Shown piece by piece: positions 43,286 through 63,943 of a stretch of DNA of 64,000 nucleotides (the stretch's first letter is position 1; each line of letters opens with the position of its first letter). This stretch comes from Hormiphora californensis. Lineage: Eukaryota > Animalia > Ctenophora. The DNA is taken from the NCBI GenBank assembly GCA_020137815.1, contig CM035351.1, positions 1,984,001 to 2,048,000 of the forward strand. The letters are read 5' to 3'. Both the position numbers and the translations under genes were made by a program. Under the pieces are notes generated by a model that worked only from the letters and a program-made list of their open reading frames with translations, did no database searches and was not told where the DNA came from.

Positions 43286-44693
43286 ATTTTAAAACTAAAA
43301 GAAGGGGTTAGAAAAAAGGGTCAGAAAGGGGCAATTCTATAGGGTGGGAATAATAGCGGCAGCGCTTAGGGCAAATCGGCATATGTATTATGTAACTGTA
43401 GTTGATTTCTTCGTAAAACATAAAGGACACTAAAAACAGCCATAGTTACAAAAAAGACTAAATTAAGGCCGTACTAGAGAGTGAGGTAATAATAAGGGAT
43501 AATAATAAGGGATAACTGAAAATATCACTGTAAAGATATCTATGAAAGGAAGAGAGACTTCGTTGATACCCGTTTGCAGACTGAGTAAGCGGGCCACCTT
43601 TCCCGCCAACTAATTTCCATTATTTTTTCCCTCCCCAGGTGCTGCCGAAGGCAGCCCCTGATTTGATGCTAGAACGCACGTGCTAGCTGCTAGAAGATAA
43701 AAGATAAAATAGCAGGGTTTAGAAATCAGCAATAAATGTCCATCCATATATGTACGCCTAACGACGCTCCTTCATCAAATCAATTTACAATTATTCTTAT
43801 GAAATATGATCTTATGATGAATTTTTTTCTGTGCGTGGTGCTCACCATAACATAAAGTACAACGCCACACAAAAGCCATTCGGCGAAGCGTGTTACGTAA
43901 ATTTTAAAGCTCTTTAGTAAGTTTGAGTTAGCTATGTGACAAATGCACTTACAACTGCATCGTATGCATCTGACATATTAGCCTTAATATCGTGATACTG
44001 ATTCTGTTAACGTATGTAGAAGCCGAAGGACGGGGAACTCCGCATTTGCATTATGAATTCATAATGTGATTATCCATATTTTTACTTATTTTAACCTTTC
44101 TTATCTTTTTATTGTGCTTTTATACAGACCGTATTTATCTAAAATATTATGGACGATGTGTATGTGTATAAAAAGTTTATTGTTTATGTAAAAATCTGAT
44201 GATGCTTCACTAGAATGCCCGTTGAAGAAATCCTTCGCATTGAAGAGAAAGCATTCATCCCACCGTGCCTATCCATACGTTGTTATCATCCTTCGTTGTA
44301 ACTTGTACTGAAGAACATGGGGATTGTTAGTGCAGTCGGACCCCGATTTATGAACAAATTTCCCCCGATTTACCGGGTAAACCTTAGTGTTGTATTGGGT
44401 CAACTTCAACGGGCTACCTAGTGATTTTATAACAGTTTAAAGTTTGACACGAACTCCGAAGATGCATGTATGCGAATGAATTAACTCCTTACCAAATAAA
44501 CCGTGTTTAAATGTTAATTGGTATCCCTATCTCTCCCTAATCCCAGGTCCCCTCTTTCTCCCCCAGCCCCCTCTCTATCTCCCTCTCCCAGCCCCCTCTA
44601 TCTCCCTACCCAGCCATCTCTCCTCACTCTCTCCCACTCCCTCTCTATCTCCCCACTCTCTCCCTCTCCCTCACTAATTGATCATTCCGTAGA

Positions 44694-45632
44694 ATGCCAC
44701 CACAGAAGCGATCCAAGGCTTACTACGTTCAGAGTGCCAAACGGCCCAAATCACACGGCGTTGGTAAGAGTCTGGAGGCTCTGAAGCAGAGCACCCCTGG
44801 AGTGATAGTTACCGCTAACTTTCTGAAGGGTGGCTGCAAGAGGGAGGTTCTCCAGCTGTTGAAAGAGTTCAGCGGTGTTGGTAGTAACCATAGCAACAAG
44901 AAAAGCACCTCTGATGACGTCACTGATGAGATAGCGGCTGAGATAGCGGAACTGAAAAAGGAGCGAATTATTTTTGATAAAATCGACCTATCCAACAACA
45001 TGATGTTCGTGGCAGTCCGGGATCAGGAGATCAACCCGACTACCCTGGTCCACCAGATAATGACTAGCCTGAAGGACAAGAAACAACGCCGCACTCGATT
45101 TACCCAGAAGATCCAGCCCGTAGCCCACACCTGTTACGCCTCCGTAGAGGATATCACGAAGGTTGCTCAAACTATGTTGGAGGGAGTGTTTTATAACGAC
45201 ACCCCTAAAACATTCTCTATCGTATACAAGGCCCGGAATAACAACTCTCTGAATCGTGATGACGTCATTAAAGCCGTAGCAACGGTTGCCACGGACAACG
45301 ATAAATGGAAGGACTCTGTCAAGGTTCACCTGGACAACCCTGAGTGGGCCATAACGGTGGATGTGTTCCAGAGTGTGGCATTCCTGGGGCTGTTACCTGA
45401 TTATGTGCTGTTAGCCAAGTACAATGTGGATAATCTGACAGCTGAGTGGATGAAGAAGGACGAGGAAAAGGAGGGAGAGAAAGAGGGAGAAAATGTGGTT
45501 GCTCCTGCTGAAGAAGAAAATGTGAAACCATCTACAGAAGAGAAGAAGGACACGCCATCCAAGGAGGATGTCCCGGAGAAGAATGTGGCGGCAACAGATC
45601 CTTCTTCTAACACCGTTTTATCTGAATCTTAA
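44694..45632 (+). CDS. THUMPD1: THUMP domain-containing protein 1 (Tan1-like tRNA acetylation adaptor), single exon
   Basis: PGVIVT, RTRFTQKIQPV, TFSIVYKARNN, KVHLDNPE and KYNV motifs; acidic tail. Confidence 0.9.
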   Translation: MPPQKRSKAYYVQSAKRPKSHGVGKSLEALKQSTPGVIVTANFLKGGCKREVLQLLKEFSGVGSNHSNKKSTSDDVTDEIAAEIAELKKERIIFDKIDLSNNMMFVAVRDQEINPTTLVHQIMTSLKDKKQRRTRFTQKIQPVAHTCYASVEDITKVAQTMLEGVFYNDTPKTFSIVYKARNNNSLNRDDVIKAVATVATDNDKWKDSVKVHLDNPEWAITVDVFQSVAFLGLLPDYVLLAKYNVDNLTAEWMKKDEEKEGEKEGENVVAPAEEENVKPSTEEKKDTPSKEDVPEKNVAATDPSSNTVLSES

Positions 45633-45901
45633 TTTATTTTAATTTAACACTTTTCAAGAAGAGATGAGTTTGTGTAGTTTTATTTGACGTTGTATCCACA
45701 CTCTCTCTTGATCACGCACTGTGCTAGACGGAAACATTGTTCTATTTGTGGTAAATAAACAACTGAACAAGCAGACTTTCTCTTTCAGCATTGTTTGCCA
45801 TCTCTCTCTCTCTCACTCTCACACTCTCTCACACTCTCTCTCTCTCTCTCTCTCTCTCTCTCTCTCTCTCTCTCTTTTCCCAGGGAAGGTAGACACAACT
45901 A

Positions 45902-61894: not shown

Positions 61895-62191
61895 AGGGAG
61901 GATTGTAAAGATTTTGTGATTGTTATTGTGATTTATTATGTGTTAGTAGCGGGGGTGGGAGATAAGAAGAAGGGAGCTAGTATTAATAGCTGCTATTATT
62001 CTTGAATATTCCCAGAATTATAATCGAAATATTAATCCATGAGTCTGCAGCATTGCTTTGTATATCAATCCTTCTCTCTGATCACGCCATACATTTCCAA
62101 GAAACAGATATCATGTTTGGTCTAATTGCGGTGCAGCTCCGCAGTTCTCCCTCTCCCTCTCTCTCTCTCTCTCCCTCCCTCTCTAGCTATT

Positions 62192-63943
62192 ATGGTCAGT
62201 GGTTCGTTGCTTATTTTTGATGCCCCTTCATCGCTCCCCCTAACTCGTATCATCCCCCAATTGTGTGATGCTCGTATCTCTGGAGAAGAGGGAAAGAAGT
62301 ATACATCGCTTAAGTTCCTTCCCTTGTTATCCTCTCATGACCAGGTTAAGTTTGAGAAATAATAGGCTACGTTTTTAAATGATATTCCAAATTATACCAA
62401 GCTAGGGTTTTTCCCTGTCAGGCCAATGACAGGGTTTTCTGATTCTTGTTTTCCAGGGTGTTTGTGCGAGGGAAAAGTTAAAAAGTGATACTAAACATAC
62501 AGTGATTGTTGACAGCCTTAGTCTGTGGATTCTAAAGTCAGGTAAAATGATATTCTAATTCGTAACTCAAATATCGGGCAAAGTTATCTTTGGGGCTGTG
62601 GAGCAAGACAACATTTCTGTTTTTTAACGATCAGTTTTAAATTATTCTTCCTTCAGGGGTTTCAAAAGTGTACTCAGAGTTGCTTGAGCTGAGAAAAACA
62701 AGCGATGTTTTGGCCTGCCTCGTTTCAGAATCGGTATTACCAAGGGAAAAGGAAATAATTTTACAGCTGGCTGATAAAATTGTAACCTTGGCAAGTGGAT
62801 CACCATTCAACCCTCTTACTGGAACAATCACGGTAATAAATTCACTAATTAGATTAGTACTACTAGAGTAGTAGTAATCCAGTGATCGGATCCCGATTTA
62901 CCGGGCTCCAATAGAACACTGGGCACGCCGATTTACCGGGCCCAAAACACTTTCCCCAGAGTAAATTTCTCACGGTAAATCGGGGTCCGACTGTACCTTC
63001 TCTTTGTTCAAAAGTTTTATTTTAGTTTTTTGAAGAAGAAGATTTGTATCATATATATCGTGGGTTTTCTTGCAACCCTTCAATTTCAGGAGGAGTGTCG
63101 TCACGAAAAGAGTGGCAGAAGGGAAACAGTGGCCAGGAATTATTCAATAGATGGAGAGTCATGGTGCCTCACTACCTCTGCTAGATTAAAGAAGTCAGCT
63201 GCACCAGAGAAACCATCAGTGGAGCCCTCTCTCAAGGTGTTTATACTATCTTTGGATAGGTGATGATCTTTTATTACTCTCTCTCTCTCCCTCTCTCTCT
63301 CTTTCTCTCTCTCTCTCTCTCTCTCTCTCTCTCTCTCTCTCTCTCTCTCTCTCTCTCTCTCTCGCTCTCTCTCGCTCTCTCTCTCTCTCTCTCTCTCTCT
63401 CTCTCTCTCTCTCTCTCTCTCTCTCTCTCTCTCTCTCTCTTCCTTTCTCCTCTCTCTTTCTCTCTCTCTCTCTCTCTCCCTCTCTCTCTATCTCTCTCTC
63501 TCTCTCTCTCTCTCTCTCTCTCTCTCTCTTCCCCCCTCTCTCTCTCTCCTCTCTCTCTCTCTCTCTCTCTCTCTCTCTCTCTCTCTCTCTCTCTCTTTTA
63601 GCCCTTTTAGCCTACCACATACAACAAGTACCTGTAGGAGTATGACAAGACTCAATCATTAAGAATCCCCCGGCCCCCGTTCAAATTCCAACCCCCCTTC
63701 CCACGTTAGACGACATCTAACCCCCTCCCCACGTTAGACGTCCAACCCCCTCCCCACGTTAGACGTCCAACCCCCTCCCCACCCCATACTCAGGTAACTA
63801 TGGAACTGGGGGTGACGGCAGAAGAACGTACGGCAAGGGAAGGTTTGGAATTACCCCACCAATCAGCGGCGAGGATCCATTACACCCCTGAAACAGAGGA
63901 CGATTGGGATGATGAAGATCCTGATGATGATCTTGATATTTAG
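62192..63943 (+). CDS. ELP5: Elongator complex protein 5, about 5 exons
   Basis: VIVDSLS motif; C-terminus MELGVTAEERTAREGLELP...IHYTPETEDDWDDEDPDDDLDI*. Confidence 0.82.
62880..62994. mobile_element. Small dispersed MITE (cagtcggaccccgatttaccg family); partial copies at ~17545 and ~44333
   Basis: tcggatcccgatttaccg...cggtaaatcggggtccgactgta. Confidence 0.65.

What the first reader, a model, noticed from the sequence alone, without database searches (positions are those of the whole stretch)
44640..63943. Candidate 9-gene eukaryotic operon resolved by spliced-leader trans-splicing (12 genes if the kinases are included)
Seen: THUMPD1, ORC5, CYP, SLC35B4, PIGF, DPH5, BORCS6, ECH1 and ELP5 are all on +. 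Stop-to-ATG gaps are about 270, 165 (without the MITE), 245, 230 (without the TIR element), 151, 183, 214 and 297 bp. Each ATG follows a 3' splice acceptor (pyrimidine-rich run plus AG, usually with a CTAAC/CTAAT branch point) by 1-35 nt: AG at 44691, 45882, 49663, 54633, 57224, 58368, 59733, 61036 and 62185. The spacers leave little room for a 3'UTR, promoter, non-coding exon and intron. Established: this is the signature of SL-trans-spliced operons in nematodes and tunicates, which are enriched in housekeeping genes. Inference: one polycistronic unit of about 19 kb or more in a lineage where operons may be undescribed.
Basis: partly seen in the sequence, partly recalled or inferred. Interest (0 to 1): 0.9.

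Follow-up and report, generated by a model that had tools for sequence, protein, structure and literature searches.

The report
Likely first comb jelly operon
Nine unrelated housekeeping genes of a comb jelly lie head to tail about 150-300 bases apart (once two inserted transposons are discounted), one of them carries the comb-jelly spliced leader in RNA data, and four keep this order in a distant comb jelly, so they are likely read as one long transcript that is cut into separate messages, a gene arrangement we found no report of in this animal group.

Summary
Nine same-strand genes lie at 44694-63943 with stop-to-ATG gaps of 151-297 bp once two transposons are removed. Each start follows an acceptor as strong as the intron acceptors, and 8 of 8 spacers lack a strong donor. 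The DNA is from a ctenophore of the Pleurobrachia type.

Trans-splicing is shown for one gene: an RNA contig begins with the published ctenophore leader exactly at the DPH5 acceptor. Four genes keep their order in Mnemiopsis (locus tags 924, 929, 932; ECH1 and ELP5 fused in one model).

Polycistronic transcription is not shown. At least 56% of ctenophore cDNA reads carry the leader anyway, and neighbouring genes outside the cluster have the same acceptors. No contig bridged two genes.

Best reading: a leader-resolved operon (0.6), possibly broken at the transposons; rival: packed single genes (0.27). The kinases are probably not part of it. Seven paper searches found no ctenophore operon, but two key papers were unavailable. 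The scan holds no earlier ctenophore note, only similar candidates in other animals.

The parts
44694..45632 (+). THUMPD1, single exon, 312 aa; acceptor AG 44691-44692; likely first gene of the unit
   Evidence: Pfam THUMP; Bolinopsis homologue named THUMPD1-like; coordinates
45902..48783 (+). ORC5, six exons, 403 aa; acceptor AG 45882-45883
   Evidence: Pfam ORC5_C and ORC5_lid; open spliced frame
48810..49538 (.). Small transposon with 28-bp terminal inverted repeats, 26 nt after the ORC5 stop, 126 nt before the CYP acceptor
49675..54402 (+). Cytochrome P450, four exons; acceptor AG 49663-49664; two frameshifts in exon 1 (assembly error or decay, not resolved)
   Evidence: Pfam p450 in exons 3 and 4; frames
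50781..53761 (.). Palindromic transposon (813-nt arms, 99% complementary) inside CYP intron 2
54647..55588 (+). SLC35B4-type nucleotide-sugar transporter, single exon, 313 aa; acceptor AG 54633-54634
   Evidence: Pfam UAA; 98% identical to EukProt sb/3467151/; Bolinopsis homologue named
55682..57100 (.). Transposon with 25-bp terminal inverted repeats, 93 nt after the SLC35B4 stop, 125 nt before the PIGF acceptor
57239..58219 (+). PIGF, three exons, 169 aa; acceptor AG 57224-57225; RNA contig cover reaches 58293, 75 nt before the DPH5 acceptor
   Evidence: Pfam PIG-F; intron 2 spliced in an RNA contig and 3' cover; frame
58368..58369 (+). DPH5 trans-splice acceptor: an RNA contig carries 22 non-templated leader letters directly before it
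   Evidence: table 7 (run X1, one contig); match to the published leader
58371..59585 (+). DPH5, three exons; one extra base at the end of exon 1 in the window is absent from RNA contigs and from a genomic homologue
   Evidence: Pfam TP_methylase
59769..60825 (+). Probable BORCS6, three exons, 160 aa; acceptor AG 59733-59734; 4-codon upstream ORF at 59736
   Evidence: Pfam BORCS6 E 0.13 only; frame
61040..61894 (+). ECH1 (delta3,5-delta2,4-dienoyl-CoA isomerase), single exon, 284 aa; acceptor AG 61036-61037
62192..63943 (+). ELP5, five exons, 229 aa; acceptor AG 62185-62186; window ends 57 nt after its stop, so the unit may go on
   Evidence: aligns to the C-terminal half of Mnemiopsis KAL5255528.1, which has Pfam Elong_Iki1; frame
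43286..44692 (+). 1.4-kb region before THUMPD1, candidate promoter and outron; paralogous to the region before kinase 3
   Evidence: promoter role inferred only

Best explanation
Nine unrelated housekeeping genes of a Pleurobrachia-type comb jelly lie tightly head to tail, at least one (DPH5) receives the ctenophore spliced leader at the acceptor in front of its start codon, and they are likely transcribed from an upstream promoter as a polycistronic precursor that is likely cut into single-gene messages by 3' end formation followed by leader trans-splicing. Shown: the layout, intron-grade acceptors without donors, the leader on DPH5, a leader-like 5' end on ECH1 in another ctenophore, and conserved order of four genes in Mnemiopsis. 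Inferred: RNA polymerase II starts in the 1.4 kb before THUMPD1; in each 150-290-nt spacer the upstream message is cleaved and polyadenylated in the U-rich first part, and the leader, which supplies the cap, is added at the C-rich, G-poor acceptor in the second part. Also inferred: the same leader serves single genes (Ciona, Hydra or chaetognath type, no operon-specific leader tested). The two spacers with transposons are the most likely places for the unit to break or to gain an internal promoter. I put about 0.35 on all nine genes being one unit and about 0.25 on two or three shorter units.
For: (1) Leader at the exact predicted AG of a downstream gene, DPH5 (1 contig in run X1, the only contig in 4 runs that reached a predicted 5' end); its letters plus AG equal the 3' 24 nt of the published Hormiphora leader. 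(2) PIGF RNA cover ends at 58293 or later, leaving at most 75 nt before the DPH5 acceptor for a promoter, outron and acceptor. (3) Stop-to-acceptor distance 149-292 nt in 8 of 8 spacers after removing the two transposons, with no strong 5' donor in any; Hormiphora averages about 7.7 kb per gene (110 Mb, 14,265 genes). (4) Mnemiopsis: THUMPD1 = ACHWQZ_G010924, SLC35B4 = G010929, ECH1+ELP5 = G010932 as one fused 527-aa model. Bolinopsis: SLC35B4 XP_063674654 and ECH1 XP_063674657, with THUMPD1 on a sequence of the same length. Homologues of THUMPD1, SLC35B4 and ECH1 are all recorded on contigs of identical length in four cases (74,351; 91,115; 189,959; 2,365,012 nt), read as the same contigs. 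The Hormiphora paper found Hormiphora-Mnemiopsis colinear blocks of at most four genes. (5) An ECH1 contig of another ctenophore lineage (L002; clade support 100/99) starts with a leader-like 34-mer ending in TGAG one base before the ATG (13 of 5000 shuffles match the Pleurobrachia leader as well). (6) The chaetognath paper calls operons by gaps under 250 bp plus a leader and finds them enriched for metabolic rather than developmental genes, the longest with nine genes.
Against: No contig bridged two genes, and only 2 of the 8 junctions were examined with RNA; the leader was seen on 1 of 9 genes in this organism, in one contig of one study. Leader addition is genome-wide in ctenophores (at least 56% of reads), and kinases 1 and 2 and LDAH outside the cluster have similar acceptors, so acceptors do not mark operons. 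The spacers (149-292 nt stop to AG) are longer than the medians quoted for tunicates (1-33 bp) and C. elegans (about 100 bp), though those are measured between annotated gene ends. Two spacers tolerate 0.7- and 1.4-kb transposons that contain AATAAA, which could end an upstream message early. Mnemiopsis has four models between THUMPD1 and SLC35B4 (window: two) and two between SLC35B4 and ECH1 (window: three), so content or annotation differs; strand and spacing there were not seen, except ECH1-ELP5. None of 150 DPH5 representatives was fused to a neighbour. Only 1 of the 6 transposon-free spacers has AATAAA.
Confidence: 0.6

Rival explanations
1. The genes are tightly packed single transcription units. 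Each has its own compact promoter, overlapping the 3' end of the gene before it, and a short outron that the leader replaces. Order is kept because promoters embedded in neighbours make breaks harmful.
For: Leader is on at least 56% of ctenophore reads; genes outside the cluster have the same acceptors; no bridging contig; transposons with AATAAA are tolerated in two spacers; both leave 125-126 nt before the acceptor, which could be a core promoter plus outron. A Bolinopsis-type ECH1 contig (L001) runs unspliced 83 nt through its acceptor, which fits an outron as well as a polycistronic precursor or DNA.
Against: At most 75 nt lie between PIGF RNA cover and the DPH5 acceptor. Eight short same-strand junctions in a row with no head-to-head pair. 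Order kept in a distant ctenophore, with a fused ECH1-ELP5 model. In Hydra a comparable spacer had no promoter activity when tested.
Confidence: 0.27
2. The acceptors end ordinary 5' UTR introns: each gene has a short non-coding first exon spliced in cis.
For: An acceptor close to the ATG also fits a 5' UTR intron; only DPH5 was seen with a leader.
Against: No strong donor in 8 of 8 spacers; the DPH5 5' end carries non-templated leader letters whose only exact copy in the window lies 24 kb upstream and is not followed by GT.
Confidence: 0.03
3. The unit is longer and includes the three upstream kinase genes (12 genes), or the whole cluster rides inside a same-strand host transcript as nested genes.
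For: Kinases 1 and 2 have good acceptors before their ATGs. The region before THUMPD1 is a duplicate of the region before kinase 3, so it may be an intercistronic region rather than a promoter. Same-strand nested genes are common in Hormiphora.
Against: Kinase spacers are 593 and 1407 nt, and the latter has five strong donor-like sites. The kinases are tandem paralogues about 80% alike; kinase 1 is frameshifted and the start of kinase 3 lies in poor-quality sequence. No host exons were identified around the cluster.
Confidence: 0.1

Closest known systems
Chaetognath (Paraspadella gotoi) leader-resolved operons (PMC12460157; passages read)
   Same: Same-strand genes under about 250 bp apart, housekeeping content, leader shared with non-operon genes, longest operon nine genes; operons called from spacing plus leader reads.
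   Different: Different phylum and leader. There the call is genome-wide with at least five leader reads per gene; here one locus, one leader-bearing contig, and three of eight gaps exceed 250 bp or need a transposon removed to fall under it.
Hydra RFC140-flp bicistronic operon (PMC3273482; passages read)
   Same: Non-bilaterian animal; a spacer with a polyadenylation region, T-rich tract and acceptor AG right before the downstream start; resolved by leader trans-splicing.
   Different: Two genes, proven by reporter tests (no promoter in the spacer; acceptor mutation abolishes the downstream gene). Here nine genes and no functional test.
Ciona, Oikopleura and C. elegans operons (as summarised in PMC7986045; passages read)
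   Same: Polycistronic clusters resolved by leader trans-splicing; tunicates use one leader for operon and single genes; annotators often fuse operon genes, as seen for Mnemiopsis ECH1-ELP5.
   Different: Intercistronic medians there are about 1 bp, 31-33 bp and about 100 bp. C. elegans uses a dedicated SL2; whether ctenophores have one was not testable.
Ctenophore spliced-leader trans-splicing (Hormiphora, PMC8527503; passages read)
   Same: The same leader, ending in AATTTGAG, added at an acceptor before the coding sequence.
   Different: That paper's main text has 0 occurrences of 'operon' and 'polycistron'; it does not link the leader to clustered genes. Its supplements could not be read.

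Membership tests
Spliced-leader-resolved eukaryotic operon | Two or more consecutive same-strand genes with unusually short spacing | tested here: met
   Nine genes; gaps 151-297 bp in six spacers, about 162 and 231 bp in two after removing transposons
Spliced-leader-resolved eukaryotic operon | The organism has leader trans-splicing | tested here: met
   Leader in an RNA contig 95-99% or more alike to the window; published for the same family
Spliced-leader-resolved eukaryotic operon | Downstream genes receive the leader at an unpaired acceptor | tested here: inconclusive
   Met for DPH5 (1 contig) and, in another ctenophore, likely for ECH1 (L002); no RNA evidence for the other downstream genes in this organism. 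Unpaired acceptors are present at all nine.
Spliced-leader-resolved eukaryotic operon | A polycistronic precursor exists (reads or RT-PCR bridging genes) | tested here: inconclusive
   No bridging contig at the 2 junctions laid, but poly(A) metatranscriptome contigs at depth 4-12 would rarely show one
Spliced-leader-resolved eukaryotic operon | One promoter at the head and none in the spacers | not testable with these tools
   Needs CAGE, chromatin marks or reporter tests; only the lack of room (at most 75 nt at PIGF-DPH5) bears on it
Spliced-leader-resolved eukaryotic operon | Gene order conserved in relatives (supporting feature) | tested here: met
   Four of nine genes located in Mnemiopsis, all within nine consecutive locus tags and in the window's order; three located in Bolinopsis. 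The other five were not located.
Nematode SL2-type operon | A dedicated second leader on downstream genes | not testable with these tools
   The leader on DPH5 equals the common published leader over the 24 nt seen; no 5' read of the first gene for comparison
Spliced-leader RNA gene (for the two genomic leader copies outside the finding) | Leader followed by a GT donor and an Sm site | tested here: not met
   Both copies are followed by a hammerhead-like core, not GT

The most novel reading that the evidence does not exclude
Comb jellies, among the earliest-branching animals, have true operons. This nine-gene housekeeping unit is one polycistronic transcript that dates from before Pleurobrachiidae and lobates split, it matches the longest chaetognath operon in gene number, and such operons account for much of the little gene order that survives between distant ctenophore genomes.
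Probability: 0.4. Interest if true: 0.8.

Novelty: new member of a known kind. Interest (0 to 1): 0.62.

Why it matters
Leader trans-splicing is known in ctenophores, but what it is used for is open, and I found no described ctenophore operon. A long, conserved operon would add a phylum near the base of animals to the groups where trans-splicing led to polycistronic transcription, which bears on whether operons follow wherever leaders evolve. It would offer a cause for the few conserved gene blocks between reshuffled ctenophore genomes, and it would warn that fused gene models such as Mnemiopsis ECH1-ELP5 are annotation errors. The claim is cheap to test: the orthologous locus is identified (Mnemiopsis ACHWQZ_G010924-G010932) in a species with long-read and chromatin data. 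The mechanism itself is not new.

Tried and rejected
No whole genome is held for this window, so no genome-wide spacing or strand-run baseline could be computed; a run of nine same-strand genes alone is expected dozens of times per genome by chance and was given no weight. The run search found only four small-share metatranscriptome runs from one study and one run without shared words. Run X4 laid nothing on 57790-59925, and BORCS6 exon 1 had no cover in any run; this is no evidence of absence. Exact look-up of three window proteins found none in the collection. No fused forms appeared for SLC35B4 (19 hits) or THUMPD1 (6 hits) within the searched length range, nor among 150 DPH5 representatives. 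The metagenome scan gave 26 ECH1-related loci, of which 2 are ctenophore-like short contigs without neighbouring genes; the other 24 were not examined. The L002 leader-like motif is in no held paper, so it rests on resemblance only. Rfam found no hammerhead or leader RNA family at 33000-36000, and folding of the leader-hammerhead copies was no better than shuffles. The Atlas did not identify BORCS6. My recollection that a Penelope-element paper (PMC8557442) describes leaders on these elements was not borne out (0 occurrences). Derelle et al. 2010 and Moroz et al. 2014 are not held and could mention ctenophore operons. The Mnemiopsis chromatin paper PMC12221973 has 0 occurrences of operon, trans-splicing or leader. 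EukProt 'sb' identifiers gave no positional information. The first acceptor model had two wrong training coordinates and was rerun; only scores are used. Earlier scan notes held nothing on this genome or on ctenophores and did not change the reading.
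Full report
OBSERVATION. Pfam or named homologues confirm eight gene names; BORCS6 is only weakly supported. Stop-to-ATG gaps are 269, 891, 244, 1650, 151, 183, 214 and 297 bp. The two long ones hold inverted-repeat transposons at 48810-49538 and 55682-57100. 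With those removed, the stop-to-acceptor distance is 149-292 nt in 8 of 8 spacers and none has a strong 5' donor. A bare AG near an ATG means little (86-87% of 665 control ATGs), but these nine score like the 18 intron acceptors of the same genes, and 0 of a million random sets of nine control ATGs reach their mean. The assembly has indel errors: DPH5 shows one extra base that RNA contigs and a genomic homologue lack, so the two CYP frameshifts may be errors too.

ORGANISM. SLC35B4 is 98% and THUMPD1 90% identical to EukProt entries with 'sb' identifiers; that this format belongs to Pleurobrachia bachei gene models is my recall. Independently, ECH1 falls in a clade (100/99) with the Bolinopsis protein and the cluster that holds the Mnemiopsis protein, and the leader equals that of Hormiphora (Pleurobrachiidae). 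I call it a Pleurobrachia-type ctenophore.

TRANS-SPLICING IS SHOWN FOR ONE GENE. Four metatranscriptome runs of one study, kept as contigs, were laid on 57790-59925. Seven contigs laid, all at least 95% alike. One, in run X1, starts at the DPH5 acceptor (58368) with 22 letters that are not templated there. With the AG they equal the last 24 nt of the Hormiphora leader (PMC8527503, passages read). It was the only contig that reached a predicted 5' end; other loose ends were adaptor letters (recognised from recall) or PIGF exon 1. A PIGF contig reaches 58293, leaving at most 75 nt before the DPH5 acceptor; contigs cannot show true ends, so this is a bound, not a poly(A) site. No contig bridged two genes. 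The other six junctions have no RNA evidence. In another ctenophore lineage an ECH1 contig (L002) begins with a leader-like 34-mer ending in TGAG just before the ATG, and a Bolinopsis-type contig (L001) has an unspliced acceptor 5 nt before its ATG.

GENE ORDER IS CONSERVED. The Mnemiopsis protein KAL5255528.1 (ACHWQZ_G010932, 527 aa) is ECH1 followed by ELP5 in one model. THUMPD1 is G010924 and SLC35B4 is G010929, on a sequence of the same length. Assuming tags run in genome order and 15,000-20,000 models, three given genes would fall within nine tags in this order with probability about 1e-7. In Bolinopsis, SLC35B4 and ECH1 are XP_063674654 and XP_063674657; THUMPD1 (XP_063694760) is on a sequence of the same length but in a different accession block. 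Unnamed homologues of all three genes are recorded on contigs of equal length in four cases, the shortest 74,351 nt. The Hormiphora paper reports colinear blocks of at most four genes between Hormiphora and Mnemiopsis, so this block is as large as any it found and may be one of them. Against a perfect match, Mnemiopsis has four and two models in the intervals where the window has two and three; I could not read those models.

WHAT THE EVIDENCE DOES NOT SEPARATE. At least 56% of Hormiphora full-length reads carry the leader. Kinases 1 and 2 and LDAH, outside the tight cluster, have acceptors scoring 4.2-6.1 near their starts. The case for an operon rests on spacing, lack of room at PIGF-DPH5, conserved order, the fused model and housekeeping content. 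These are the criteria by which chaetognath operons were called (gap under 250 bp plus leader), but only the Hydra case I read was proven by reporter tests. Promoters embedded in the upstream gene's 3' end remain possible. Both transposons sit close to the upstream stop and leave 125-126 nt before the acceptor; this fits either a required poly(A)-to-acceptor segment or a minimal promoter with outron, and two cases prove nothing.

MECHANISM. Most likely (0.6) a precursor starts before THUMPD1; each upstream message is cleaved and polyadenylated in the U-rich first half of the spacer and the next one is capped by leader addition at the acceptor. Cleavage sites, the head promoter and the precursor are inferred. 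The unit may be broken at the transposons, and it may extend past ELP5, where the window ends. Rivals: packed single genes with outrons (0.27), a longer or nested unit (0.1), cis-spliced 5' UTR exons (0.03). The kinases are tandem duplicates with 0.6-1.4-kb spacers, and the 1.4 kb before THUMPD1 is itself a duplicate of the region before kinase 3; I leave them out.

NOVELTY. Leader-resolved operons are known in nematodes, tunicates, flatworms, chaetognaths and Hydra (passages read). Seven full-text searches (listings seen) returned no paper on ctenophore operons, and the Hormiphora and Mnemiopsis chromatin papers have 0 occurrences of 'operon' in their main texts. Derelle 2010 and Moroz 2014 were not held and the Hormiphora supplements were not readable; they may bear on the claim. 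Verdict: a new member of a known kind, well supported as a conserved trans-spliced cluster, unproven as a single transcript. Interest 0.62.

SIDE FINDING. The window holds two genomic copies of the leader (34268-34310 on +, about 42892-42930 on -). Neither is followed by GT. Each is followed within 0-2 nt by a minimal hammerhead-like core of the kind described for Penelope-like elements (PMC4209133, passages read). These are the only two such cores in 64 kb (shuffle mean 0.005; the pattern was written after seeing both). They look like retro-inserted, leader-capped RNAs and may explain some of the 718 genomic leader copies counted in Hormiphora; this is inference.

Noticed in passing
window 34268-34340 (+) and about 42860-42930 (-): Two genomic copies of the spliced leader, 76% alike over 93 nt, each followed within 0-2 nt by a minimal hammerhead-like core rather than a GT donor; the only such cores in the window. 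Likely retro-inserted, leader-capped Penelope-like or retrozyme-like RNAs; could account for some of the hundreds of genomic leader copies reported in ctenophores. One search for papers holding Penelope, spliced leader and hammerhead returned only an unrelated fungal paper.
   Followed up: partly
window 35500-43285 (+): Three tandem Ser/Thr kinase paralogues about 80% alike; kinase 1 is frameshifted and the start of kinase 3 lies in poor-quality sequence. The duplicated unit includes the 3' spacer, so the regions before kinase 3 and before THUMPD1 are paralogous.
   Followed up: partly
window 49675-50499 (+): Two frameshifts in CYP exon 1 that restore the overall frame; assembly error or decay not resolved.
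   Followed up: partly
window 59736-59750 (+): The first ATG after the BORCS6 acceptor opens a four-codon ORF, in frame with the main start at 59769 but ended by a stop.
   Followed up: no
window 28798-25335 (-): LDAH followed about 0.7 kb later (including a long CT repeat) by an ALKBH6-like 2OG-Fe(II) oxygenase on the same strand, both with acceptors near their ATGs; a possible second, looser unit.
   Followed up: partly
window 50781-53761: A 3-kb almost perfectly palindromic transposon (813-nt arms, internal 32-nt tandem repeats) in CYP intron 2.
   Followed up: no
Mnemiopsis KAL5255528.1 (P0132): The public model is an ECH1-ELP5 fusion, probably an annotation error, since other homologues in its cluster are 252-283-aa ECH1 alone.
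   Followed up: yes
L002:1-34: Leader-like 5' end from another ctenophore lineage, different from the Pleurobrachiidae leader but ending in TGAG; not found in held papers.
   Followed up: partly
window 4600-7800, 15000-23000 and 41100-41800: Stretches of low-quality, homopolymer-rich sequence suggest an error-prone assembly.
   Followed up: no
window 11713-13612: A rhodopsin-family 7TM receptor gene on + (Pfam 7tm_1) and the 3' end of a second receptor-like ORF converging on it from -.
   Followed up: no
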